Of a stretch of DNA of 64,000 bases, positions 271 to 64,000 are shown piece after piece. Position numbers and translations under genes: made by a program. Each line of letters starts with the position of its first letter. The stretch's first letter is position 1. The stretch comes from Mytilus edulis (Eukaryota). The stretch lies in the NCBI RefSeq assembly GCF_963676685.1, contig NC_092347.1:2914001-2978000 (forward strand), given 5' to 3'. A model generated the notes under the pieces. That model did not search any database. It worked only from the letters and a program-made list of their open reading frames with translations, and was not told the DNA's origin.

Positions 271-1378
271 TAAAAAATGGAAAACAACACGTTTTATAAT
301 TAATTGCGTCCGAAGCGCTTTTCTGGATTAACCTTCATCAGGAACGCTCAAAGCCAAACATTTGAAATCCGAAGATGTATAAGTACCGAAAATCGTTGAA
401 GAGCTTTATGTCAAAAATACCTAAAATAAATAGCCAAATTCATCTAAAGCCAACTTTGCCTGAGGGAGTTGAAACCTTAGTTTCATAATAATTTCAAAAT
501 TTATAAACAGACAATTTTAGTAAAGTTTGTTAAATCATGTTAGTACCGAAGCACTGACTACTGAGCTGATGATACCCTCGGGGACTGATAGTCCACCAGC
601 AGAGGTATCGACCCAGTGATGTAAAAAATGGAAAACAACACGTTTTATAATTTATTGCGTCCGAAGCGCTTTTCTGGATTAACCTTCATCAGGAACGCTC
701 AAAGCCAAACATTTGAAATCCGAAGATGTATAAGTACCGAAAATCGTTGAAGAGGTTTATGTCAAAAATACCTAAAATAAATAGCCAAATTCATCTAAAG
801 CCAACTTTGCCTGAGGGAGTTGAAACCTTAGTTTCATAATAATTTCAAAATTTATAAACAGACAATTTTAGTAAAGTTTGTTAAATCATGTTAGTACCGA
901 AGCACTGACTACTGAGCTGATGATACCCTCGGGGACTGATAGTCCACCAGCAGAGGTATCGACCCAGTGATGTAAAAAATGGAAAACAACACGTTTTATA
1001 ATTTATTGCGTCCGAAGCGCTTTTCTGGATTAACCTTCATCAGGAACGCTCAAAGCCAAACATTTGAAATCCGAAGATGTATAAGTACCGAAAATCGTTG
1101 AAGAGCTTTATGTCAAAAATACCTAAAATAAATAGCCAAATTCATCTAAAGCCAACTTTGCCTGAGGGAGTTGAAACCTTAGTTTCATAATAATTTCAAA
1201 ATTTATAAACAGACAATTTTAGTAAAGTTTGTTAAATCATGTTAGTACCGAAGCACTGACTACTGAGCTGATGATACCCTCGGGGACTGATAGTCCACCA
1301 GCAGAGGTATCGACCCAGTGATGTAAAAAATGGAAAACAACACGTTTTATAATTTATTGCGTCCGAAGCGCTTTTCTG
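271..1378 (-). mobile_element. Non-LTR retrozyme tandem array RZ-351 (351-bp unit x ~3.15) with one type I hammerhead per unit
   Basis: Units start at 271, 622, 973 and 1324 (period 351) and are near identical. The minus strand of each unit reads GCGUUC-CUGAUGA-AGGUUAAUCCA-GAAA-AGCGCU-UC^GGACGC. Confidence 0.88.
306..347 (-). ncRNA. Minimal type I hammerhead ribozyme (further copies 657-698, 1008-1049; half copy 1359-1378)
   Basis: Stem I GCGUUC/GGACGC, core CUGAUGA...GAAA, short stem II GG/CC flanked by A.A, palindromic stem III AAGCGCUU, UUC cleavage triplet. Confidence 0.8.
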
Positions 1379-3055: not shown

Positions 3056-6000
3056 GTTTTTTTTTCTTTTTTTTTGTAATGTGTTTATAGGCAAAGAACT
3101 ACATGTATATTAACAATAGTAAATAAGTTCATAGTACATCAGCAAAATCGAGACAAGTGCATAAAGTTGACATTTGGAATCCTTCTATAAACATATAATA
3201 ATTATTAATAATAATTTTAAAAAAAAATAGAAAATCTTAATCTGAGGTAGCATGGATTGGGTAGATATTTTTATTACGTGAAAGTTAACTTATAAAATCA
3301 TTCTATTAGTTGGAGCCAGGGGTTCCAGCAGGTGTACGCTCTTTGCAGTGGTTTATTTTTATAAAATATTATTTTTGCAATAAACAAATTTTCTTTAAGA
3401 TAATTTTTTAAGGCTACACTATTTACTTGTCCACATTGCATTTTTGTTTTGTATATATAGTATTTAGTGAATAGTATTATGATATTTCTTATGAAGTTTT
3501 TTTCTGTTTTTTCTAATATCCCAAATAAGACTATATCTAAATTACGTGGTAGTTTAATTTGGACTTTTGAATATATCCATTTATTAAGTTCTTCCCAAAC
3601 ATCAAAAACGTTTGGACATGTCCAGAATATGTGTTCAATAGTTTCTATTGAGTCCAAACAGAAAGTGCATTTATTGTTTTGTGAGACTTTAATTTTGTAG
3701 AGTAATTTATTAGTTTCCAAAATTCTGTGATTATTTCTGTATTGCAGCCACTGTAATTTTGAGTTTTTAGTAATGTAAAACGGAAGTCTGTATATTTTAT
3801 TCCAAATAATATTATGTCTATTTAAGATTAAGGACCACTTTTTCTGTGATGTGATATTTGTTATTTGTTTCATTTAAAACATTGTACATGTCTTTTGATC
3901 CTTTTGTAGATTTCATAAATATAGAAATAGAAGTTGGTATAATTGGCCCATAAGGCTTTATAAGCTGATTACTTTTGATATCAAGACTTTTCATATAGGA
4001 ATAAACAGCTGACATTACTCCTTGAAATATAAGAAAGTTGGTTTCAATATCATATGTTTTTTTAAATTCCTGCCAATTCAATAAATGTCCCTCATTATCA
4101 ATTAAATCATTTATTAGCCAGACGCCCTTTTCAGTCCACGTTTTATATAGAGGGATTTGATTACCAATTTTAATTTCTTTATTATTCCAAAGATTAGATG
4201 TGATAAAATCGTATTCGTTCTTAATAGCTATTTTGGTTTGTAGTTCAGTCCAAGCATTAAAAACCTCCTGCCAAAAAGGATTTCTTACTTGTGTTCTTGG
4301 ACCTACCAAGAATAATTCATTTAATTCAATTTTTTCAGTACAAGTTAGTAACTTACAATAATTATTAGTTTGTTTGATTATTCTTCTTATCCAATTAGTT
4401 TTAATACTTTGATGTATTGTTATAGATTTAACATGTTAAGTCCACCCAGTTCATATATTTGAGCAATTGTTTCTCTTTTAATTTTGTCTGGTTTACCATC
4501 CCAAATAAAATTAAATATTTTTTTTATGAATTGATTTAGTAATCCATTATTAAGATATGGTAAAGTTAGAAATAGGTGATTGAGCTTTGAAATTATAAGG
4601 CTTTTAATTATAGTATTTTTCCAATTGGAGATAAGTATTTGTTAGACCAGCTTTTCATTGTTCTTTCTATCTCTTTAAATTTGAGTTCAAAGTTTAGCGT
4701 TTCCGTTTCTTGTAAGTCTACTGAATATGTAATACCCAAGAGCGTAAATCTGTTGGAACCCCATTCCAATCCCCACTTTACACACATTGTATCTTGGCTA
4801 TATTTCTTTTTCCCAATCCAGACTACCTTTGTTTTCTCTAAATTCATCTTGAGACCAGACCATTAAGCATATAGGTCTAAAACACAAAGAGATGCATCTA
4901 AGGATTCTGGTGAACCATCTAAAATAAGTGTGGTGTCATCAGCATATTGTGATATCAAAAATTCTGAGTCTTCAATAATAATACCTTTTATATTTTCGTT
5001 TTTTCTAAGTAATATTCCTAAAATTTCTGCACATAACAAGAAAATGTAAGGGGATAAAGGATCCCCTTGTCTGCAACCTCTTTCAATTGTAAACAAATCT
5101 GATAGAAAATTATTCTGCGTTATTGCTGATTTGGTATTTGTAAAAAAAGTTTTAACCCAATGTTTTATGGAATTTCCAAAGTTGAAAAAATCAAGAACTT
5201 GTTCTATTAAAATCCAGGATATTGTACCAAAAGCTTTATCAAAGTCAATGAGGAGGAGAATGCCTGGGATATCATTTTCTTCAGTGTAGTGTAGTAAATC
5301 GTATATTAGTCTGGTGTTTTCACCAATAAATCTACCAGGTATAAATCCTGTCTGGTCATTATTAATTAAGATTGTTAAAACTGACTTTATCCTTTCTGCA
5401 ATGCAACTTGATGCTAATTTATAAATATTATTTAGAAGACTGATTGGCCGCCAATTCTTCATGTATTGTTTTTGGTTTGTCACCTTTTGATATGCAAGTT
5501 ATAATACCTTGTTTTTGGGTAATAGACATTTCCCCTTGATTATAGGCATATTTAATTGATCTATGTATGAATTTGCCTATATCAATCCAAAAAATCTTTA
5601 TGAATTCATTTGTATATCCATCCGATCCAGGGCTTTTCTCATTTTTCATTCTTTTAATTGCATCAGTCAATTCTATAAAAGATATTTCCCCTTCTAACGA
5701 CTCTTTCATATTTTTAGATAATTTTGGTATATCTTTATGTGGTAAAGCATTGTTCAGATTAATAGATTTTATTTTATCTTACCTCCTATACATTTCCAGG
5801 AATATGATTGGTTAAAAGCGTCCGCGTGCAAACCGTGTATATTTGATATTAGGTTAGTAGGGAGGCGGGGCTTAGCTCATACACGGTTAGTAGTGGAGTT
5901 ACGTCCCTTTATATTCCTTATTAGGTAAGAAGGGGGCGGGGCTTATTACATACACGGTTAGTAATGGTGTTATGTCCATTTGTAAAAAACAAAACGGTAC

Positions 6001-7650
6001 TGAGAAAAAATCTTAAAAGTTCCAACAGACGAAGAAATTGATGATTAAGATTGAAACAAATTCATAAAACACATTTAAACCTTACAAGTCGTTATTGTTG
6101 GCATCTGTTTTTGTAGGATTAATGGAAGTATTTTCTTAGCGCTAACAGTATTGAAGACCTGCTCGTTTTGAGAATCACTAGTCTTAATTTCACACGTTAA
6201 GATAGTCGGTAAGATAAATTCGTTACATAGTGTGCTAGTGACGTAATACAGTATATATGGGGTCAGTAAATTCCATATGGGGATTCGAGCTTCGCTCTCA
6301 CCCCATATGGAATTTACTGACCCCATATATACCGTATTAGGTCACTAGCACACTATGTAACTAATAGTCTCATTTTTGGAATATAGATTTTTGTAATAAT
6401 TTTTCGCTTCGTTTAGAATACGTTTTTGGTTTTAAATTATATTTCCTGATTTATCAATTAATTTAGGAATTGTTTTATTTACATAATTTTTTGTCTCTAA
6501 ATTTATGAAGTATTTTGTTTTTGTCCTTATGTATTGACCCCTCATTTTATTTTGTCTGAGAATTCTAAGATCTGCTTTCTATTTTTCTATCTGTTCCAAA
6601 ATTTCATCTGTTTGGGTTATTTCTTCCAACTTGTTTATATCTTCAGATAGCAAATGTTCTGATTTATTTGTTTCTTTCTTTTTAAATGAAGCATATGATA
6701 TTGTTTCCCCCCTTATTTCAGTTAACAATGTTTCTAAAAATAATTGATCACTAATTGTGAACTCAATTTCATTAGAGTCTATTAAGTTTAGGTTTTCTCG
6801 ATTATATACAAGAGAAGCATATTGCTCTTTAGTTTTATTTATTACCTCTTTAACAATATGGACATAATTTGGATCATATAGAAGAGAGTTGTTAAATTTC
6901 CATAAACCCCTCCCAATTCTGAAGTTATTAAGTTTTATTTGTAAAATAATTGGCGAGTGATCTGATCTATAACTATTTTGTATCTTTAAGTCATGTACAT
7001 TTGGATAAAAGCTCTGTGAAACAAAACAAAAAAATCTAGTCTGGCCTGTTTTATAGGGTTTGGTTTCCTCCAAGTATATCTTTTACTTTCTGGATATAGT
7101 TCTCTAAAGGGATCAGTTAAGTTGTAAATTTCCTTTATATCGAAAACTTTTTCCTTGGCTTTTGGATTATTTATATTTAAGTAATTAAAAGTATCAAGGT
7201 CTTGATTTTGCACTGAGTTATAATCTCCTGACACAATGACGGTATGATTATCAAATTCTTCAATTATTTCACTAACTTTATCATAAAAATCAGGGCTGTC
7301 ACTGTTTGAACCATATAATGTAATTAAAGTAATATTACTATCTTCAATTTTAATATTCAATCCTAATAGATTACCATTTTGATCTGTTTTACTTTGTAAA
7401 ATCTTATATTCAAAATTATTATTAAATAAAATGGCCACTCCTCTTTGATTTGAAGAAAAGGAACTAAAGACACATTTTCCACCCCATTGACTCTTAACAA
7501 ATTGTTCATCTTTTTCAGAAAAGTGTGTATCTTGAAGACAATACATGCTGCAATCTTTTGCTCTTAGATAGTCTAAAACATCTCTTCGCTTTTCAATTGA
7601 ATTAAGTCCTTGGCAGTTGTATGAGACAATCTGAAAAAGATTATTTTACG
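3056..7650 (-). mobile_element. Tx1/L1-clade LINE, ORF2 (APE endonuclease-RT-CCHC) pseudogenised by frameshifts and one insertion
   Basis: APE motifs SYNCQGL, CLQDTH, RGVAILF, GDYN, ARLDFF, SDHSPI, WKFNNSLL. RT motifs KSPGSDG, WRPISLLN, QTGFIPGR, LIDFDKAF, GCRQGDPLSP, QYADD. Zn knuckle CTFC...ETIEHIFWTC. A-rich tail at 3056-3075. Confidence 0.95.
5771..6365. mobile_element. Non-autonomous long-palindrome element inserted in the LINE ORF2
   Basis: Removing it restores the frame (..KNE-T-I-KSINL..). AT is repeated at 5771-72 and 6364-65. 140-bp palindrome at 6222-6361. Short IR ATTTTATCTTAC (5771) / GTAAGATAAATT (6209). Confidence 0.85.
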
Positions 7651-8132
7651 TTTAGAGTATAAATGACACAAATAGTTTAAAACATAATTTATATAAAATG
7701 ACAGAAAAAGTCCCAAACAACTGTCAATAAGTGAAGAAAAGTTAACACAATGTGTGTTATGTAGTAATGGTCTGGTCTCTGATTTAAACATGATGTTAAT
7801 TGTAATACTTCTGCTATGAATTTCTATATCTTCATGTATATTTGCCAATAGAATAATAAACAAAATAAAAAAACATTGTAAAGAAAAGAAATGAAAAAAA
7901 TTGAGTAAAAAATAAAGGAAAAAGACCCTCTCCTAATGGTTTAGTATTTGAAAAATTCAATTCAATAGCATTTACCCTAGTTTACACTACTGTAGTACTC
8001 ATTCTAAAGTTAGGTTAAGGAATAATAAAGGTAACAGTAATATACCGCCAATTTTGCTCCATTTATAATAAAGATAAGCACACCTCAGTAGTTTCTTACT
8101 TACTTACCTGCCTCGACAGATAATTGCTTTAA

Positions 8133-12614: not shown

Positions 12615-13162
12615 TTTTCTTACCCCAGGAGTAGATTACCTTAGCCGTATTTGGCACAACTTTTTGGAATTTTGGGTCCTCAATGCTCTTCAACTTTGTT
12701 TTTATTTGGCTTTTTATCTATTTTGATCTGAGCGTCACTGATGAGTCTTATGTAGACGAAACGCGCGTCTGGCGTATAAAATTATAATCCTGGTACTTTT
12801 GATAACTATTTACACCACTGGGTCGATGCCACTGCTGGTGGACGTTTCGTCCCCGAGGGTATCACCAGCCCAGTAGTCAGCACTTCGGTGTTGACATGAA
12901 TATCAATTATATGGTCATTTTTATAAATTTTCTGTTTACAAAACTTTGAATTTTTCGAATAACTAAGGATTTTCTTACCCCAGGAGTAGATTACCTTAGC
13001 CGTATTTGGCACAACTTTTTGGAATTTTGGGTCCTCAATGCTCTTCAACTTTGTTTTTATTTGGCTTTTTATCTATTTTGATCTGAGCGTCACTGATGAG
13101 TCTTATGTAGACGAAACGCGCGTCTGGCGTATAAAATTATAATCCTGGTACTTTTGATAACT
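12615..13162 (+). mobile_element. Non-LTR retrozyme RZ-355 (355-bp unit x ~1.5) with two intact type I hammerheads
   Basis: 12615-12807 is repeated at 12970-13162 (period 355). Hammerheads lie at 12732-12775 and 13087-13130. Confidence 0.9.
12732..12775 (+). ncRNA. Type I hammerhead ribozyme (identical copies 13087-13130 and 49816-49859)
   Basis: GCGUCA-CUGAUGA-GUCU(UAUGU)AGAC-GAAA-CGCGCG-UC^UGGCGU: canonical core, G-C closed stem II, palindromic stem III ACGCGCGU, GUC triplet. Confidence 0.92.
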
Positions 13163-13815: not shown

Positions 13816-16800
13816 ATTTTAAACATATTTTATTCATTAAGATAGATTGAGCGACAGGCACAGCCTATAAAAGCTCTCTCCATATTACATGTTTAAGGTA
13901 TAATTCAATTTGAACAGCTGTATTGAAAATAAGGCAATATAGTGGAACATGCATGCTACTTATGAGCACACGCGAGCAAATATATGTTTACAGTGTTACT
14001 TTCTAAATGCGAAGTATATTTAAGTATATAGGCAATTACTCATCATGCATTCAAGAACCTTGAAACATGCAAATATATATATATGGCTGGAAAGAGACAC
14101 TAAGCTTGCTTAGTGGATAAAATGAATTAATGTTTAAGTGGAGGAGAAAACAATAAAAAATAAAACTAAATGAAACAAAAAAATAAGTAAGTTTCAAAAC
14201 GTTGAGTGTCACTGATATATTAATGAACAGATTTAAAAATAGCAATATTCATATCATATGAGAATAATCTGTTTCCGAAAAGTAATAATTCAATATTTAT
14301 ATCAACATTATCAGCAATGGAGTTAATGGAATCAAGAAGGATCTGTCTAACATCACTGTACTTAGGGCAAATGAAAAAGAAATGTTTGTTATCCTCAACA
14401 GGGTGATTACAGTTTGCACTAATAGTGTTCTCGGATAAGAACTGATTAAACAGATGATATTTTAGGTTGCTAGCATTATTTCTGAGTTGACAATGACTTA
14501 TATTAAGTTTCCTTATCCCATTGTTAAAATGTTTAAATATATCATCAGTCCTATAAAACTTTTCCAGTCCACTTCTAAATATACCCAAACTTGGGGATTT
14601 TTGTAAACTCAAAGGAAGACTATTCCAAAGTCTTATAGTGGAAGGAATGAAACTATTAAAATAAGAGCTAGTTCTAGCAAGAGGCGGATGAAAAGTGTTA
14701 TTTTCGTTCCTCAAAGTATAAGGGGTTTGTCTGGGAAGATATGGCTGGACTAACTCATATAAGTATGCAGGTGTCAACCCATTTAATATTTTATAGACTA
14801 GTATAAGCTTATGTGTATTACGTCTATTCTCCAGAGTTTCTAAACCTAATTCAATATAAAGTTTTTGTCTGGAGGAATTACGTCGTAAACCTGTAATAAT
14901 TCTAGCGGCTTCTATCTGAATATTTTCAAGAAGCTCAGACTCGTGCTTGGAGCAATTGCCCCATACAACATCACCATACTATAATATAGGTATAATAAAA
15001 GCATAATAAATACGTATAAGTGAACTCCTATCTAATAAATGTTTAACTTGACGAAGCACAGATAGACGAGAGCATGCTTTTTTATAAATAATATCAATAT
15101 GTGAGTTCCATGAAGCTGATGACTGGAATATTATCCCAAGATGACAGTTAATATTTATTTTCTCAACCTCTTCCCCATTTATCCCAAAAAATACAGGTGG
15201 GTGTTCCCTTTTCCTTCTAGTAAAAACAATATTTTTAGTTCTATTAGAGTTCAATTGAACACCCCATGATTTTGCCCAATTTGCGATAACATCCAAGTCA
15301 TCAGTCAAAGAAGCAGCTGCTACAGCAGGATCATCATCTACTATAACAAATAAAGAGGTGTCATCTGCAAAAAGTCTAATATCATTAGAAATGTCATTTA
15401 CTATATCATTTATATAAATAAGAAACAGAAAGGGTCCTAAAACTAATTCCTGGGGGATTCCTGCATGTATACTTCTTAGAGTTGACGAAAAACCTTCTGA
15501 AATGACATTTTGTTGACGATCTGAAAGATAACTTTCTATCCAAGATAAGAGCTGATCATGTATGTCAGATTGTTTAAGTTTAAATAAATGTCCTTTATGC
15601 CAAACTATATCGAAAGCTCTAGACACATCACAAAATACAAACCTTACATCCCTCCCACTATCCATATTACTAATAATTTTATGATATATTTCAATTAACT
15701 GATTACAAAATGTAACAGTAGAGTCACCTGGCTGGAATCCAGATTGAAACTTTGACAAAAGGTTATTACTTCTCATATAATTATACAAATGTTTAAACAG
15801 AACTTTTTCAATAATCTTACAAACAATACTAGTAACAGATATTGGACGATAGTTTAGAGCTGAATGTAGACTACCTTTTCCTTTAAAAATAGGATTAATA
15901 TGTGCAGTTTTCCATAACAGTGGAACCTGTTTAACTGATAGAGACATATTAAATAACTTAGTTAATGGTTTAGAAATAAAGCTAGCAACCTCTTTTAAAA
16001 TTCTAGGACTGATACCGTTAGGTCCAGCTGGTTTGTTAACATTCAAGATTTTTAACTGATCTAAAATTTCTTTCTCAGTAATGACAAATTTATATAAATG
16101 ACATGGAGGAGGCTCATTATTATCCGGAATTTCTGGTTCTGTATGATTGCTCAGGATCTCTGATTTGTCCAATGGATGAAGAAAAATTTGACCATCATGT
16201 TCCAAAAAAGGGGGAAAACTCTATTTTTAGTAAAATTTGATACAGACTTGGCAATGCGCTACCATTTATTAGGAGGAATATTTTTGTCAATAAGTTGAGA
16301 TGTCAGTTTGCACTTACAGATTGCACTTTGTAAATACAGCTGTTTCTCAAACCACGCCTTTTTTGGGGAGATTTAGAATATTCATAGAAAATTAATTTTG
16401 TTTACATACTGGTTCCCAGTTATGCTCTCTGTGTCCCATCTCATAGAGACACAACTTGGGAATGTTACCAGTAGATAAACATGTGCATATTGTTTACATT
16501 GAAATATGTGGTAACCCTTTATTCGAGGTAGGGGTAGTTAAGAAAATTAGTGTTAGTTTAAACTCTGAAAAGCTCAGGGCATATAAACGTTGAAAATATG
16601 TCGCACAGCCCTATATTTTGACCTTTGAAAAAAATTGTAGTGCATATGAACTTTCAATTCTAGGATAAGATTTTTTTCAAAAATTCATAGTAAATGTGGT
16701 ACAGTTTTAGCGGTAAAGGGAGTTCCTATGGGAAAATGCATTGTCACTATTTACATAAATGCAACCTATAATCTTCTTTTGCCTTTTTAACTAAGCTGAT

Positions 16801-25344: not shown

Positions 25345-25531
25345 TTCTGACGACAATAATGCAGGAGGGTTCAATACGTGAAACAGCAACAACAAGATTA
25401 CTGTTTCGTACCTTGGTGTTCTGACGACAATAATGCAGGAGGGTTCAATACGTGTAACAGCAACAACAAAATTACTGTTTCGTACCTTGGTGTTCTGACG
25501 ACAATGATGCAGAAGGGTTCAATACGTGAAA
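25345..25531. repeat. 74-bp tandem repeat x2.5 with internal hairpin GAAACAG..CTGTTTC
   Basis: Units start at 25345, 25419 and 25493. Confidence 0.9.
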
Positions 25532-25550
25532 AAGCTCTAATAACAACCTT

Positions 25551-26670
25551 TTATTGAAAGAGTTGGTATTACTTTGCTTCATAAAAAAGAATGGCCAACG
25601 TAGATACAAGTATCTTGTCTTAGGGAGGGATAAATCATACTTTATAAAGAATCACTCTGATTCAAACAAAAAATTCTCTGAAACCGATATTATCATGCTT
25701 GATTTCTTGATTGACAACATATTTGTAACGGTTGGAGGACGTGTTTTTCAACAGACTGTCGGCATCCCAATGGGAACAAACTGTGCCCCTCTACTTGTCG
25801 ACTTGTTTCTTTATTATTATGAGGCTGACTTCATGCAGGAACTTCTTCGGAAGAAAGATAAGAAGTTAGCAATATTCTTTAACTCTACTTTCCGCTATAT
25901 AGATGACGTTCTTTCACTAAACAATTCAAAATTTGGTGACTATGTGGAACGCATCTATCCCATCGAGTTGGAGATAAAGGATACTACAGATACAGTTAAG
26001 TCGGCTTCATATCTTGACTTACATCTAGAAATTGACAACGAGGGTCAGTTGAAAACAAAACTTTACGACAAAAGAGATGATTTCAGCTTTCCAATTGTGA
26101 ACTTTCCATTTCTAAGTAGCAACATTCCAGCAGCACCTGCATACGGGGTATATATCTCCCAATTGATACGATATTCCCGTGCCTGCATTTCCTATCATGA
26201 TTTTCATGATAGAGGGTTACTGCTCACAAGGAAGCTATTAAACCAAGAGTTCCAAATGGTGAAGTTGAAATCATCCCTTCGTAAATTTTACGGACGCCAT
26301 CACGAGTTGGTTGACCGTTATGGAATAACCGTTTCACAAATGATATCGGATATGTTCCTTACGTCGTAACTACAATCCCCTTCCCTTTCATGAATGTGAC
26401 CTACCGAATTAGACTATTTACCGGATTTTATATCACATAATCAACACGACGGGTGCCACATGTGGAGCAGGGTCTGCTTACCCTTCCGGAGCACCTGAGA
26501 TCACCCCTAGTTTTTGGAGGGGTTCGTGTTGTTTATTCTTTAGTTTTCTATGTTGTGTCATGTGTACTATTGTTTTTCTGTTTGTCTTTTTCATTTTTGG
26601 CCATGGCGTTGTCAGTTTGTTTTGGATTTATGAGTTTGACTGTCCCTTTGGTATCTTTCGTCCCTCTTTT
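25551..26670 (+). mobile_element. 5'-truncated Penelope-like retroelement (RT palm + thumb ORF 25554-26369, no C-terminal GIY-YIG, plus 3' UTR)
   Basis: Motifs GIPMGTNCAPLL.DLFL, FRYIDD, SYLDL, TKLYDKRDDF, SNIP..AYGVYISQLIRY; stop shortly after the thumb. 3'-end-only relatives at 9380-9540 (-), 30475-30616 (-) and 47001-47042 (+). Confidence 0.88.
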
Positions 26671-49426: not shown

Positions 49427-50466
49427 CAGGGCCGTAAATTCGCCGGGCGGAGCGAGGCGAAAACATTTTTGGACCCTTTTTAGACCAAATGTTGTTTTTT
49501 TTAAATCGGGTTTTTTCCCTGTATGCAATGAACCTCCCCTTTTTTGTCTGTTCCAATCGAGCTATTTTAACTTCGCTTCACAGACACAATTTAAAAACCT
49601 TAAACTGAAAATTCATATGTAATTTATTACTCTTAATTTTGATTAAATTCAAATTAATATAAAGTAACACTGTGTGTTTATACTGAAAGTTTTATTTGGT
49701 TAAGCTTTATCAAATGCCAAGGCGATTTTTCTGTGACCGGAGGAATCCTATCTCTTGAGCACTTATATATGCACAAACTTTGTATTTGTTTGGCTTTTTA
49801 ACTGTTTTGATCTGAGCGTCACTGATGAGTCTTATGTAGACGAAACGCGCGTCTGGCGTATTAAATTATAATCCTGGTACTTTTGATATCTATATACCTT
49901 CAATATTGCCAACATTGTCACTTCTATGTATGTGTAGCACCACACAATCTGTTTTCCGTCATTGTCGACCTATTCCAAGTTTGAGAGGCCATAGTTATAC
50001 TTACATTATTAACAAGTTGGTTAGTCTATGCACAAATTATGACGATTCTTCTAGTTGTTAACCATTAAATGTGGCGCAACACTAGGACCAGTGGTCCAGT
50101 TTCACTTAACCTCGCAATTTGCTCCTCAGACTGGTATGGCGAGACTGCAGGATTTTTATTATGCCCGCGAATGAGACACAGGAGAATCCCTTGCTACAAA
50201 ATTGGGGGGAAATTTTTACGTGTACAAAGGAGTTGGGTACCGTTCAGCGATATTCACCAGATTTAAATATCGAACACATCCTGCAATTATGATTAATATG
50301 ATTAATCACCTTGTTGGTCAAATTATTAACCGGTGATATTAAAATAATGCATGATTTTAACCATTTTTTTTTTTATTTTCTGAGGGTTTTTTTTTCGTAT
50401 TTTTTTGTTGGTTAGCCCGCAATAGGAGGCAACTGCCTACATGCCTCCATGTAATTTACGGTCCTA
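49427..50466. mobile_element. MITE with 14-bp TIRs, containing a solo RZ-355 hammerhead fragment (49776-49890)
   Basis: TIRs CAGGGCCGTAAATT / AATTTACGGTCCTA; TSD unclear. Confidence 0.6.
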
Positions 50467-56529: not shown

Positions 56530-57407
56530 TGTAATTATCCATTTGCTCTGAAAGTTCAACCATGCTTCTCGTTTTTTATTAGGTTATACCGTTGGTTTTT
56601 CTCGTTTACTGAATGGTTTTTCACAAGTAATTATTGGGCCCTTTATATATACAGTAGCTTGCTGTTCGGTGTGAGCCAAGGCTCCGTTTTGAAGGCCGTA
56701 TCTTGACCTATAATGGTTTACTTTTATAAATTGTTACTTGGATTGGGAGTTGTCTCATTGGCACTCAAACATCATCATCCTATATTTATTGACACAGCTG
56801 TGTCATCTCTGATTTCGTTTACTAAACTATCGTGATTTGAGCTTTATGGACCAGCAATAGGTTGTAATTTAGGTTGGATTGGTCGGTCCGACATCTCTGC
56901 TTGATCATGATTCGTTACTATCAGAGCTCCCTCTGCCTCTACATCAACTTCTACCACCACGCTAACGTGTTCTAGTTGAATTTGGTGGCATGACTGTAGT
57001 GTTTCCGAGAAATCGACGTATTAATCAGAAAAGAAGGAATGGAACTGTATTGATATGGAACACGATGTTGACGTTTTTGCTGAGAACGTAGTAAGATCGC
57101 AGCATGAACGTGTTATTATCGCAGTAGAAGCGTGGTAAGATCGTGTTGCAATCGGATAACTCGTAGTATGGTCGTAGTGAGAACGTGATGAGCGTAGAAA
57201 GATCTTGATAAGCGTAGTGAGGTCGCAGAATAAGCGCGGTGAGAACGTGGTATAATCGTAGCGGGATCGTTGTAGAAGCGCAATGATGACGTAGTAGCAT
57301 CGTGAAAGCAACGAAAATTTACATTTTCATGCCGCTCTCACCACGATCTGAAATTATTTTAGATTGCGGTGAGCGTGGTGCGATCGTGGTCTAGTGGGAC
57401 TGGGGCT
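56530..57407. mobile_element. PIF/Harbinger-like non-autonomous element, right half
   Basis: Ends ..ATCGTGGTCTAGTGGGACTGGGGCT followed by TTA; ATCGT/CGTAG subterminal repeats; collinear with 63115-64000. Confidence 0.7.
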
Positions 57408-57470
57408 TTAAATAGAGAATTTGAAAAATATTGAATTCTCCCATAGCATCTGTAGAACATCAGGTAGAGA

Positions 57471-57499
<29 letters not shown>

Positions 57500-57506
<7 letters not shown>

Positions 57507-57743
57507 AAAATTATTAAAAGATAAAAACGGTTTCAATGCATCACTTTTTTACTAGTACTTTCACTGCTTCCGCAGATCTTCAGGTAATGTGACTTGTATA
57601 TAAATAAAACAATTGATTGACGTCAATCTATTGTTTTATTTATATACAAGTCACATTACCTGAAGATCTGCGGAAGCAGTGAAAGTACTAGTAAAAAAGT
57701 GATGCATTGAAACCGTTTTTATCTTTTAATAATTTTCTTATAT
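57500..57743. repeat. 244-bp near-perfect loopless palindrome between two (TA)n tracts (57475-57503, 57778-57802)
   Basis: Axis at 57621/57622 (TGAC|GTCA); one T.T mismatch seen at 57614/57629. Confidence 0.95.
57651..57702 (+). ncRNA. Minimal type I hammerhead (mirror copy 57541-57592, - strand)
   Basis: UCAC-A-UUAC-CUGAAGA-U-CUGC(GGAA)GCAG-U-GAAA-GUAC-UA^GUAA-AAAA-GUGA. Confidence 0.78.
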
Positions 57744-60400
57744 GTTACCAGCATACGGACTTTACTTAACTTTTTCTTATATATATATATATATATATAT
57801 ATAAAGGTATAATTAAGGATGTTATCCAAGTTATTGTCCTTGTTGCGTAACAGTAGTAGGAATCGTATCATGTCTAGCCATTTTACTGGATAAGAGTAGT
57901 GAAATACTATTGCAATAAGGAATTAATCGTATTTATCTAAATTAAAACGGATGAATTTACCATAAAAGTACAGATAAACTTGTGTGATTGAAGGATTCAA
58001 TTAATGAGAGGATTCATAATTATGAACTTTTTCTTTTTATGTCGCAAGAAAACGACAAAGTCTTCTTATTTCTTTGACTATTGTAAAAAATAAAATATGT
58101 CATTTTATTTCTTTATCTATTAAAAAGACAATTTCAGAAAGAAAAAAAAATAAAGGGTTTTCGTGCAATTTATGCTCCAAACTATTTTATCTTTGTTGTT
58201 AGGGAAAAGTGTATAAAAAAACTATGTTTTCATCGAGATATTTGTTTATTTTAATTTAATATTTTTTTGGGTGAGGGAAGGGAAGGGGGCTCGAACGATT
58301 TAGCTACTGTCTTTCGATTTGATCGAGTCTTAATGTACTTTTCATTATGTTGTTAATTACTACAAGAAGTTCTTTTTTTTTCTCACATCCAGATATATTT
58401 GATGGTGTTATTTCACTAAATGTTCACTCAGTAATGGGATCGCTGACAACTTGAAATTAAGGGACCAGCTTTATATCTAGACCTTTAAGGGTGGACATTG
58501 ACCTACAATGTATATCTATGACAAACGCAATACTTAAACTGTCAACTTCCAAATAACTGTATTGCATAGTCACATGCATTCTGAAATAAACTATACCGTT
58601 TAGTTAACCCATGTGAAACGATCGTAGTTTGTTCTAATATTGGTTATTTCAAACAAAATCGCAACCCCAAAGTGGAAAGGGATTAATATAGGTTGCAATA
58701 ACTTATTTCCTAATCCACTATAAACAAATATGTTTCACCTAAACAAAATAGTGTATTCATATATTTAAAAATTAGATATGAATTTCTAATTGAATAATAG
58801 TTTACGAAATGATAGCACGAAATGCCTCCCCTTTCGAAACACCTAGCTGTATTCGCTTGATTAAATGCCTTTTTGATTGTTTAAATTCCATGTTTGTCTG
58901 CGTGTATACTTGGACTCAAATCAGGATACAGACATTTCTATTCAGAAACGACAGAATAATACTTTTTAAAGTACTTCTAAAAAACATAAATGAGTTGAAC
59001 AGCATCTTAATGAAATCAACCGTACGTATGTGATGTTATTTTCATCTTAAATCTATAATTGTGTTTAAACAGCGAAAAAAATATGAAAATGTCCATAATT
59101 TATATATAATAACTTTACGGACATAATTTTCACATTACATTAGGCCGACAAAAGATTAATGCAAAGAGAGGTATTACCGTTCACAAGGGATGACCGTATT
59201 TTTATGTGACTGCTCTTTAACTGTATTACCTTTTTGCACCAGGCCATATCACTCTTTCCATATTTAAATCGGTTAAAAGACAACATCAAAAATGTATTCT
59301 AACTTTCTTCTTTAATTTCCAACCAATAAAAACTTAGAAATGAATGAAAAGGGAAAAGAAAGAAAATAAGGAAAACACAATTTAGTTACATGTATAATAA
59401 CTACGTTAAATTTGTATACATACATTTACATGCTGTACAGTAGAAACTCAGACAGCGTAAAACTTCTATTTATAAACTTTTTTACACTAACGCCGCCGTA
59501 ACCAAATAGAAAAATGTAAATCTAACAAAAGAAGATGTGGTATTATTGCCAATGAGACAACTCTCTACAACTGACCAAAATGACACAGAAATTAACAACT
59601 ATAGGTCATCGTACGGCCTTCGACAATGAGCGAAGCCCATACCGCAAACTCTATATATTTCAACAGCGAATCATGTTTTAATTTAGTATATCTGGCCCCG
59701 GCACCATAAAACTTTTTTTTCTGAGTAAAAAAATATTCTCAAAATTAATTATTTTACTCAGCTAAGAATGAGAACTTTTTTATCCGCCATAAAAAATATT
59801 CTCAACGTTGAGAATATTCTCAGCTGAGAATTTTTTTTCTTTGCCGAGAAAATTTTTCTCAGTGATTTAAGCGGTAAAATAGATGTTTGAAAACTAAAAA
59901 GTACACCAAACTTAGTTGAAGGCCGTACGGTGACCTATAGTTGTTAATGTCTGTGTCATTTTGGTCTTTTGTGGATAGTTGTCTCATTGGCAATCATACC
60001 ACATCTTCCTTTTTATATTCGCTAAAACTCAGTTTTATCTCTTTAGCAATAATGTAAAACATAAAAATAATCTATGATAGATAAAATGACAAGTAGCATT
60101 TTGTAAGCATCGGTAAATGGAAAGTTTGTAAGCATCTGTTAATGAACAAAAAGTCACAGGATACTGTAAAAATTCAGATATAATTTACTTTTTATATTAA
60201 TCTATGGCGTATGGCATGCCAAATAAACATTTATTATAAGGATCAATAACATTCATTATGTATTCAGACGTCACAAGAAGACACCATGTGACAATTTTTA
60301 GTCAATTATTTATTAAAGTGAAACAGATCTTCCAACAAACTGATATTGGTGTCTCGGGATGATACGACATATGATACGGATTTTGCCATGTATTATTCTC

Positions 60401-62564: not shown

Positions 62565-64000
62565 TACCCTAGTCCCACTAGGCCACGATCGCACTACGAT
62601 CTGTGAAAAAAATGCAAATTTTGATGATCGTAGTGCGATCGTGTAGATCGCAGTAAGATCGTATCACGGTCGTGGTGAGGTCTTCAAGATCGTGAAGAGC
62701 GTGGCCAACTTTGAACATGTTCAAAACAATCGTGGTGCGGTCGTGGCGAAATCAGGTCGTAGTAGAAGCGTAGTGAGAGCGCACTTAGATCGTAGTAAGA
62801 TCGCAAAAGTCGCTGTACAATCGTAGCGAGAGCGTAGCGAAAGCGTGATTCTATTCGGAGAGACTGCGCTACGATCGCACAACGACGTTATCACGACCTC
62901 ACTACGACCATCACGTTCTCACTGCGACCCAACTACGCTTCCACTACGACTATACCACGCTGTTCACGACCATTGTACGATTCTAGCACGCCCTTATCGT
63001 CCCCATCACGCTCTTCTTACGACCTGACTACGTTCAGACTACGACCATCATTCTCATTGTTATTTTCACATAAAATATATAAAAAGCTCCCTAGATTTTG
63101 TTTGTTTTAATGAAACTATCCATTTGCTCTAACGGCTCAACCATGCTTCTCGTTTTTATATAGATTAGACCGTTGGTTTTCCCGTTTAAATGGTTTAACA
63201 CTAGTAATATTTTGGGTCTTTTTTAACATGCTGATTGATGTGAGCCAAGGCTCCGTGTTGAAGTCCGTACCTTGGCCTATAATGGTTTACTTTTATAAAT
63301 TGTTACTTGGATGGAGAGTTGTCTCATTGGCACTCATACCATATCTTCCTACATATATTGATACATCTATGTCATCTCTGCTATCGTTCACTAAAATATC
63401 GTCATTGAGCTTTATAGACTGCAATCTAATTAAAAACCGATCTCTCATCGCTCCCGTTTTCTGATATGTCGCGTGGGAGATCTAACGAAACCCGCTTTGA
63501 GGTCACATGTGAGTGAACTGGAAGTTATGAATTTATAATGATATGCAAATGAGTTGACGACCTATTAATAAGCCAATCAAAAAAGTTTATGAATTATTTT
63601 GACTGACGATTTCGTCGTAAATAAAATGAGTTACATCCCTTTGCCTTACGATAAACTTTCAAGATCGTGGAAGACTCAATTTCATTGGTCGAAAAAGACA
63701 CACCTACAAGGTCACTCACATGTGACCTCAAAGCGGGTTTCGTTAGATCTCCCACGCGACATATCAGAAACAGGAGCGATGAGAGATCGGTTTTTAATTA
63801 GATTGTATAGACTGGAGCAATAGGTTGTAATTTAGGTTGGATTGGTCGGTCCAATATCTCTGCTTGATCAGGATTCGTTACTTTGCTCCCTCTGCCTCTA
63901 CACCAACTCCTACCTCCATGCCCACGTGTTCTGGTAGATTTTGTTGGCATGACTGTATTGTTTCCGATAAATAGAAGGAATTGAACTGTATTGATATGGA
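62565..64000. mobile_element. PIF/Harbinger-like non-autonomous element, left end, runs off the window
   Basis: TTA followed by TACCCTAGTCCCACTAGGCCACGATCGCA, the inverse of the 57407 terminus. Minus-strand remnant MPTKSTRTRGHGGRSWCRGRGS.. from 63950. Confidence 0.7.
63422..63805. mobile_element. MITE with ~95-bp TIRs and 9-bp TSD (Mutator-like by TSD length)
   Basis: Termini CAATCTAATT / AATTAGATTG; TATAGACTG at 63413-21 and 63806-14; empty paralogous site at ~56846-56855. Confidence 0.88.

What the first reader, a model, noticed from the sequence alone, without database searches (positions are those of the whole stretch)
57475..57802. Loopless 244-bp palindrome in (TA)n encoding a hammerhead on each strand
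Seen: both arms contain a third hammerhead type (CUGAAGA core, GGAA-capped stem II with U.U at 10.1-11.1, palindromic AGUACU stem III, bulged stem I). The arms point outward from a TGACGTCA axis, and both end in TTTTCTTATAT running into TA repeats. Known: Penelope-like elements carry minimal hammerheads in their pLTRs, often leave inverted pLTR copies, and some target microsatellites. Inference: a young head-to-head pLTR insertion primed at both ends of a cut (TA)n. A read-through transcript would fold into ~120 bp of dsRNA that masks the ribozyme. The axis equals the CRE consensus, possibly by chance.
Basis: partly seen in the sequence, partly recalled or inferred. Interest (0 to 1): 0.7.

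Follow-up and report, generated by a model that had tools for sequence, protein, structure and literature searches.

The report
Twin-primed Penelope stub palindrome in mussel
This mirror-image repeat is a real, recently inserted stub of a known kind of jumping gene (a Penelope-like element) in mussel DNA, and its many sister copies indicate it was likely made by copying the element's RNA twice, once from each cut DNA strand; the shape is already described, so it is mostly ordinary.

Summary
Confirmed, and largely a known structure. The 244-bp loopless palindrome (one mismatch) is two 5'-truncated, head-to-head copies of the 3' end (pLTR) of a young Neptune/Nematis-type Penelope-like element in (TA)n. 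A full-length parent with RT and C-terminal GIY-YIG is in the same genome. Two independent runs bridge the site without the insertion, so it is not a fold-back artefact. In 24 of 24 head-to-head pairs one arm stops short and the other carries the tail. In 9 of 24 the short arm reaches further 5', which fold-back cannot produce; twin priming at two RT start sites fits. The hammerhead is the element's minimal type I motif: its stems covary across six families and U10.1-U11.1 is a published variant; cleavage is untested. The CRE octamer is made by mirroring, but its ACGT core belongs to an ACGT cluster found in all six pLTRs. 5' ends at the predicted cut are only suggestive (p about 0.07). This scan reported twin-primed Penelope palindromes before in at least eight notes on other genomes.

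The parts
57475..57499 (.). left (TA)n target microsatellite (ATAT at 57500-57503 is shared between target and element)
   Evidence: empty allele leaves 24-26 letters here
57500..57621 (-). left arm: 5'-truncated pLTR copy, element positions -158 to -35, ending at the short priming site, no tail
57541..57592 (-). minimal type I hammerhead motif on the left arm; predicted cut after A57553
   Evidence: mirror of the + copy; cleavage untested
57618..57625 (.). axis TGACGTCA; the self-complementary ACGT (57620-57623) is shared by both arms and is native to the parent; the full octamer is created by mirroring and this junction is unique in the genome
57622..57743 (+). right arm, palindromic part (element positions to -35); differs from the left arm and the parent at 57629
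57651..57702 (+). minimal type I hammerhead motif: CUGAAGA core, U10.1-U11.1, 4-bp GNRA-capped stem II, palindromic 6-nt stem III, bulged stem I; predicted cut after A57690
   Evidence: covariation across six families; cleavage untested
57744..57778 (+). 35-nt PLE 'tail', on the right arm only; in the full-length element it runs on into the ORF1 leader
57779..57803 (.). right (TA)n target microsatellite

Best explanation
The palindrome is a head-to-head pair of 5'-truncated 3'-end (pLTR) copies of a young Neptune/Nematis-type Penelope-like retroelement sitting in a (TA)n repeat, likely made in one insertion event by twin priming. Shown: parentage, target, one-sided tail, polymorphism, de novo junction. 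Inferred steps: (1) the element's GIY-YIG nuclease cuts both strands of (TA)n; (2) each TA-rich 3' end pairs with one of two TTTTCTT-AT sites 35-39 nt apart on the element RNA and primes cDNA, one at the short site and one at the tail site; (3) both cDNAs run 5' across the hammerhead, the tail-primed one displacing the other or using a sister RNA from the same source; (4) their 3' ends anneal through the self-complementary ACGT at -158, and fill-in leaves a loopless palindrome with a new TGACGTCA. The hammerhead is a passenger from the pLTR, predicted to cut only as a dimer (palindromic stem III) and probably with protein help. This copy has no ORF and is a dead-end product.
For: Parent: L031 holds pLTR + ORF1 (390 aa) + ORF2 (812 aa; RVT_1 E 1e-5, C-terminal GIY-YIG E 2e-4, both just under Pfam's cut-offs; DKG motif, CX4CX2C linker, CCHH residues); the window arm is 99% identical to its 3' end. 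102 exact copies of a 23-nt hammerhead pattern against 0 for the reversed control. 3' ends: 103 at -35 and 47 at 0 of 171 distinct. Head-to-head pairs: 24 of 24 have one short arm and one tail-bearing arm (2 of these tail arms run on into a tandem unit); P about 1e-11 from solo-copy frequencies (25 of 111 with tail), at most 6e-8. Second family (about 40% aa identity): 6 of 6 pairs follow the same rule with a 38-nt tail. Arms agree at the near 50:50 polymorphism at -60 in 20 of 20 informative pairs (4 uninformative), P about 1.5e-6. In 9 of 24 pairs the tail-less arm reaches at least 10 nt further 5', so neither arm can be a fold-back copy of the other; in 3 of these the tail arm stops at -36, -39 or -48, where the other primer sits. 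9 of 24 pairs are near-symmetric (6 nt or less) against 1.3 expected, 0 of 100,000 permutations. This junction occurs once in the genome. In vitro, a PLE RT cuts and extends both strands and starts at two sites that bound the tail (PMC11167929).
Against: This copy is symmetric, so fold-back is not excluded for it individually. Agreement at -60 shows a common source subfamily, not one RNA molecule. The arms differ at -149, and the right-arm T also occurs in one other copy (2 of 76), which could mean two templates or a recurrent change. No target-site duplication can be read inside (TA)n. The truncation points were entered by hand. The in vitro work is on a Poseidon-clade element and reports no homology between target and start site, whereas here 2-4 nt of AT homology exist. 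No cleavage data. RNA reads are sparse (38 reads in run X24, possibly another species) and show no pile-up of ends.
Confidence: 0.75

Rival explanations
1. Self-priming (fold-back): one strand, a cDNA or an antisense RNA as proposed by Arkhipova et al. 2013, folds back at ACGT and copies itself up to the -35 site, giving the inverted tail-less arm.
For: Perfect symmetry here; self-complementary motifs at the axis in 3 of the 9 near-symmetric pairs (window, L010, L005); arms share alleles; proposed in PMC3846280 (passages).
Against: Impossible for 9 of 24 sister pairs, where the tail-less arm is longer at its 5' end. A zero-nucleotide loop cannot form within one strand (hairpins need about 3 unpaired nt; own knowledge). 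One mechanism explaining all 24 pairs is simpler.
Confidence: 0.17
2. Two independent insertions, or two unrelated RNAs, landed back to back in the same microsatellite.
For: (TA)n is a repeated target; tail-to-tail neighbours in one repeat exist (L056, L083); the arms differ at one site that varies in the family.
Against: No (TA)n between the arms; 24 of 24 short+tail pairing; 20 of 20 allele agreement; 9 of 24 near-symmetric truncations.
Confidence: 0.04
3. The palindrome is itself a mobile fold-back element or small-RNA hairpin gene that spreads as a unit.
For: Very stable predicted hairpin; sub-threshold Rfam miRNA-precursor matches.
Against: The junction is single-copy; the sister palindromes have their own junctions; the Rfam scores are far below gathering thresholds (46.8 against 90 bits) and reflect any long hairpin; the site is empty in other animals.
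Confidence: 0.02
4. Fold-back sequencing or assembly artefact.
For: No raw long read across the filled allele could be examined; short-read contigs do not span it.
Against: Unique, non-mirrored flanks that match the empty allele in two studies; one-sided tail; 23 similar pairs that obey a fixed rule.
Confidence: 0.02

Closest known systems
Endonuclease-positive Penelope-like elements with an inverted pLTR and a one-sided tail (Adineta vaga Pen2/Pen2a, PMC3846280, passages; general scheme in PMC8557442, passages and Introduction)
   Same: Head-to-head 5'-truncated pLTRs, palindrome at the junction, 30-40-nt tail on one arm only, AT-rich target, hammerhead in the pLTR.
   Different: Here the whole insertion is only two pLTR stubs. 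The published explanation is self-priming on an antisense template or nuclease resolution, whereas the sister copies here favour two primings.
Neptune/Nematis clades of PLEs (PMC8557442)
   Same: RT followed by C-terminal GIY-YIG, CX2-5CxxC linker, CCHH motif, DKG motif, (TA)n bias.
   Different: Described as single-ORF; this parent and four distant families have ORF1 overlapping ORF2 in the -1 frame with an in-frame U UUU UUA. Neptune versus Nematis was not resolved by a tree.
Minimal type I hammerheads of metazoan PLEs (Cervera and de la Pena 2014, PMC4209133, parts 1-2 of 4)
   Same: Conserved core, short stem I, palindromic stem III implying a dimer, location in the pLTR.
   Different: U10.1-U11.1 in place of the usual G10.1-C11.1 (a natural variant already reported in PMC3088659, passages); stem II is 4 bp rather than 7-8.
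Poseidon of Anolis carolinensis in vitro (Frangieh et al. 2024, PMC11167929, parts 1-2 of 4)
   Same: Two RT start sites that bound the tail; both target strands cut and extended; hammerhead not needed for insertion.
   Different: Different clade; inverted products and twin priming are not reported in the parts read; start sites are said to have no homology to the target, while here both end in TTTTCTT-AT.
LINE-1 twin priming (recalled, no call)
   Same: Second target strand primes on the same RNA and yields a 5' inversion joined by microhomology.
   Different: In LINE-1 the two pieces do not overlap and the second primer site is variable; here the two sites are fixed and the arms usually duplicate the same sequence.

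Membership tests
EN+ Penelope-like element (parent) | PLE-type RT with DKG motif and C-terminal GIY-YIG endonuclease | tested here: met
   (Pfam RVT_1 and GIY-YIG at E 1e-5 and 2e-4, just under the curated cut-offs; motifs read from the translation)
EN+ Penelope-like element (parent) | Partial tandem forming pLTRs, with inverted 5'-truncated copy | tested here: met
   L031: full unit 3724 nt, preceded by a 1882-nt partial copy and an inverted stub
EN+ Penelope-like element (parent) | [quoted passage not shown] | tested here: met
   35-nt tail, 24 of 24 pairs
EN+ Penelope-like element (parent) | Single ORF | tested here: not met
   Two overlapping ORFs in -1 frame in L031 and L040 and in related families; Fig. 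1 legend of PMC8557442 allows a frameshifted ORF1 but the figure could not be seen
Neptune/Nematis clade | CX2-5CxxC linker and CCHH motif | tested here: met
   CX4CX2C before the nuclease; C-x2-C between the GIY- and YIG-like motifs and two downstream His
Neptune/Nematis clade | RT phylogeny with reference elements | not tested
   No labelled reference set was fetched
Naiad clade | N-terminal GIY-YIG, DKA motif, no canonical hammerhead | tested here: not met
   Nuclease is C-terminal, motif is DKG, hammerhead present
Minimal type I hammerhead | Core CUGANGA / GAAA / UH with stems I and II | tested here: met
   stem II fully different yet paired in families A, B, C; stem I 2-6 bp in six families
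Minimal type I hammerhead | Palindromic stem III allowing a dimer | tested here: met
   6 of 6 families palindromic, three different hexamers. The unconstrained two-strand fold did pair this region but gave up stem I, so the active dimer was not the predicted minimum
Minimal type I hammerhead | G10.1-C11.1 pair | tested here: not met
   U-U in 3 families, G-U in 2, A-U in 1; U-U is a reported natural variant (PMC3088659)
Minimal type I hammerhead | Self-cleavage after H17 | not testable with these tools
   Indirect only: 3 loci with 5' ends at -86/-87, P about 0.07; no read-end pile-up
Non-LTR retrozyme | Head-to-tail tandem of 170-400-nt hammerhead-bearing units | tested here: not met
   Window copy is head-to-head and derives from an autonomous PLE; one sister locus (L025) is such a tandem

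The most novel reading that the evidence does not exclude
Head-to-head Penelope insertions are made by fixed-site twin priming on one RNA, not by self-priming: the two RT start sites that bound the tail are each used once, one per target strand. The points where the arms meet record real RNA 5' ends, including the hammerhead cut (L114: both arms begin exactly at the first base after A17; L115, L111 and L016 begin at or one base from it; L056 ends at it). That would show a U10.1-U11.1 minimal hammerhead cutting in the germ line and explain the tail and the inversion together.
Probability: 0.3. Interest if true: 0.6.

Novelty: new member of a known kind. Interest (0 to 1): 0.3.

Why it matters
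The locus itself is a dead-end stub and matters little. Its family matters modestly: how Penelope-like elements make inverted ends and the one-sided tail is called unresolved in the papers read (PMC8557442, PMC3846280). A strict short+tail rule (24 of 24, and 6 of 6 in a second family) with 9 pairs that fold-back cannot make gives a concrete prediction for the existing in vitro system (PMC11167929). An intact young parent (L031) with a covarying hammerhead offers material for testing whether minimal PLE hammerheads cut in vivo. Library searches for Penelope with twin priming listed 3 and 2 papers, none about this by title or abstract start; subscription papers, figures and supplements were not seen, so absence from print is not established.

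Tried and rejected
Naiad parent (would have made the hammerhead surprising): rejected, nuclease is C-terminal. miRNA precursor: Rfam matches far below gathering score. Palindrome as a mobile unit: junction single-copy. Enrichment of 5' ends at the hammerhead cut: among 129 distinct copies recovered from 130 exact pattern matches, 3 loci at -86/-87 against 0.47 per nt, P 0.07 (2-nt window) or 0.17 (3-nt); L115 was counted there although its blunt alignment reads -89 with 2 nt of microhomology; L111 lay outside that set; not significant. RNA evidence: 38 reads in X24 and a few contigs in X15, X16, X19; no end pile-up, no splice joint; 12 reads leave the element at the tail end into other DNA, i.e. 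read-through of a truncated copy. Stimulatory structure after the slippery heptamer: fold z from -1.9 to +1.4, no simple H-type pseudoknot found in 5 of 5 families. Internal deletions -302 to -131 and -307 to -140 as introns: ends are not GT-AG. No solved-structure match for ORF2; no Pfam family for ORF1 at E<=0.1. The bacterial promoter scan is not applicable to an animal and found nothing. No host exon was identified among 27 of the 38 long ORFs scanned, so whether the locus is intronic is unknown. The Terminon paper was not held. Rows dropped before counts: loci covering the same genomic place were merged; pieces under 80% identity or ending before -60 were left out; L208 belongs to another family and was not counted among the 6 family-B pairs.

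Full report
Observation. The palindrome is as described: arms 57500-57621 and 57622-57743, no spacer, one mismatch, between two (TA)n runs. Each arm carries CUGAAGA, U, a GGAA-capped 4-bp stem II, U, GAAA, palindromic AGUACU, A17 at 57690 and a bulged stem I. The right arm alone continues for 35 nt before its TA run. A read-through RNA would fold into one hairpin of -188 kcal/mol. Contigs from two independent studies bridge the site with only 24-26 letters where the window has 329, so the insertion is polymorphic and not a fold-back artefact. No raw long read over the filled allele could be seen.

Parent. The genome is 1.37 Gb; ORF1 of the parent matches Mytilus proteins at up to 99%. The right arm matches copies at 92-100%, and a 23-nt hammerhead pattern occurs 102 times against 0 for the control. 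[quoted passage not shown] By the definitions in PMC8557442 this is a Neptune/Nematis-type element and not a Naiad; no tree was built.

Anatomy of the family. Positions are counted from the tail end (window position minus 57778). Of 171 distinct pLTR 3' ends, 103 lie at -35 and 47 at 0; 130 of 167 terminal ends run into (AT)n. Both sites end in TTTTCTT-AT, giving 2-4 nt of homology to the target. Among 24 head-to-head pairs every one has a short arm and a tail-bearing arm; two of the tail arms run on into a tandem unit. Independent choice would give P about 1e-11, and at most 6e-8 if my first search inflated tail-bearing copies. A second family, about 40% identical in protein, shows the same in 6 of 6 pairs picked only for being on opposite strands. 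The two arms agree at a near 50:50 polymorphism in 20 of 20 informative pairs. Nine pairs are near-symmetric against 1.3 expected; in nine the tail-less arm reaches further 5'; in six the tail arm does. The window's junction is single-copy.

Mechanism. A fold-back copy can be neither longer at the 5' end nor longer at the 3' end than its template. In nine pairs one arm is longer at the 5' end and the other at the 3' end, so two RNA-templated primings are needed. In three of them the tail arm stops at -36, -39 or -48, where the other primer would sit, which points to one RNA. This fits the in vitro finding that a PLE protein cuts and extends both strands and starts at two sites that bound the tail (PMC11167929, parts 1-2 of 4). 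It differs from the self-priming proposed for Adineta (PMC3846280, passages). For the window copy the inferred last step is annealing of two cDNA ends through ACGT at -158. Against this: the copy is symmetric, so fold-back is not excluded for it; allele agreement shows a common source, not one molecule; the arms differ at -149, a change seen in 2 of 76 copies.

The hammerhead. Six PLE families in this genome carry the motif in the same place. Stem II is replaced yet paired, stem III is palindromic in 6 of 6 with three different hexamers, position 11.1 is U in 6 of 6, and 10.1 is U, G or A (the families were read by hand). Within the family the commonest stem II changes keep a wobble pair or a GNRA loop. 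This argues for selection on the ribozyme fold. Minimal dimer-type hammerheads in pLTRs are described (PMC4209133, parts 1-2 of 4) and U10.1-U11.1 is a reported natural variant (PMC3088659, passages). The monomer fold is weak (-1.5 kcal/mol for the hammerhead fold against -8.0 for the minimum). A hint of cleavage in vivo: L114 is a palindrome with both arms starting exactly at -87, the first base after A17; L115 has two starts there; L111 and L016 start at -86; L056 ends at -88. The census gives only P about 0.07 and RNA reads show no end pile-up.

The CRE. The parent reads AACGTCA, so the full TGACGTCA is made by mirroring. The ACGT is one of a cluster: 21 ACGT in the 73-130 nt before the hammerhead in six families against 1.1 expected from their own ORFs (local duplications in two families inflate the count). 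That suggests a bZIP-type promoter in the pLTR (inference; the CRE consensus is recalled). 5' ends are denser just downstream, 41 in -113..-140 against 23 in 47 nt and 23 in 74 nt on either side, but these include paired, duplicated and deletion ends and AT-rich microhomology, so a start site there is only a lead. The new octamer lies about 20 nt from a TATA-like run on each side, so outward transcription is conceivable; such transcripts would hold one arm and not be masked. Nothing here tests that.

Novelty. The architecture is published (PMC3846280, PMC8557442). Searches for twin priming in Penelope elements listed 3 and 2 papers, none on this by listing; supplements and figures were not seen and may bear on it. 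Earlier notes of this scan reached the same twin-priming reading in other genomes, and others noted the -1 frameshift, one in this genome; my reading was written before those look-ups. Also read: PMC7229834 (passages), PMC12602865 (passages), bioRxiv 10.64898/2026.07.22.740005 (part 1 of 5).

Verdict. Real, well explained, a new member of a known kind. Interest 0.3; the value lies in the family statistics, not in this locus.

Noticed in passing
L031 minus strand 4683-4527; L040; L190 5307-5406; L191/L196; L193/L200/L201; L194: Five PLE families (about 40% protein identity) have ORF1 overlapping the RT-nuclease ORF in the -1 frame with an in-frame U UUU UUA, always followed by G; ORF2 of the parent has no Met until after the DKG motif. 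Likely programmed -1 frameshift; a conserved splice acceptor (TTTTTTAG) is a rival; no stimulatory structure found; ORF1 of the L194 copy is broken.
   Followed up: partly
73-130 nt before the hammerhead in L031, L190, L196, L193, L194, L209: Cluster of ACGT / TGACG-like half-sites in all six pLTRs, 21 against 1.1 expected; candidate promoter.
   Followed up: partly
L025 1501-2007: Three head-to-tail 183-nt units (-129 to +54) each with the hammerhead: looks like a nascent retrozyme-type array derived from this PLE.
   Followed up: no
L114 1947-2092; L115 1998-2088; L111 1775-1908; L159; L056 3345-3810: Insertions whose ends lie at or next to the predicted hammerhead cut, and mini-tandems that restart at the same 5' point (-87, -86, -78).
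   Followed up: partly
L193 after 8251; L209 4386: Related families have G10.1-U11.1, and the L193 family has a U3-A8 core; position 11.1 is U in all six families.
   Followed up: partly
L049, L050, L131, L090: Copies with an internal jump from about -302 to -131 (or -307 to -140) that removes the ACGT cluster but keeps the hammerhead; not GT-AG.
   Followed up: no
window 271-1378; 12732-12775; 13087-13130; 49816-49859: Two other hammerhead-bearing repeats: a 351-nt tandem on the - strand and a family hit by Rfam Hammerhead_1 (two copies 355 nt apart); both look like mussel retrozymes.
   Followed up: no
window 3298-7932 (-), 14220-16220 (-), 25530-26369 (+): Retroelement remains: AP endonuclease, RT and zf-RVT pieces of a LINE; a second RT; a weak third RT.
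   Followed up: no
window 57020-57410 and about 62890-62950: Very high-copy repeat with a 22-nt sub-repeat just left of the finding, and a similar 20-22-nt sub-repeat array about 5.6 kb to the right that appears to be in the opposite orientation; possibly long inverted termini of a DNA element.
   Followed up: no
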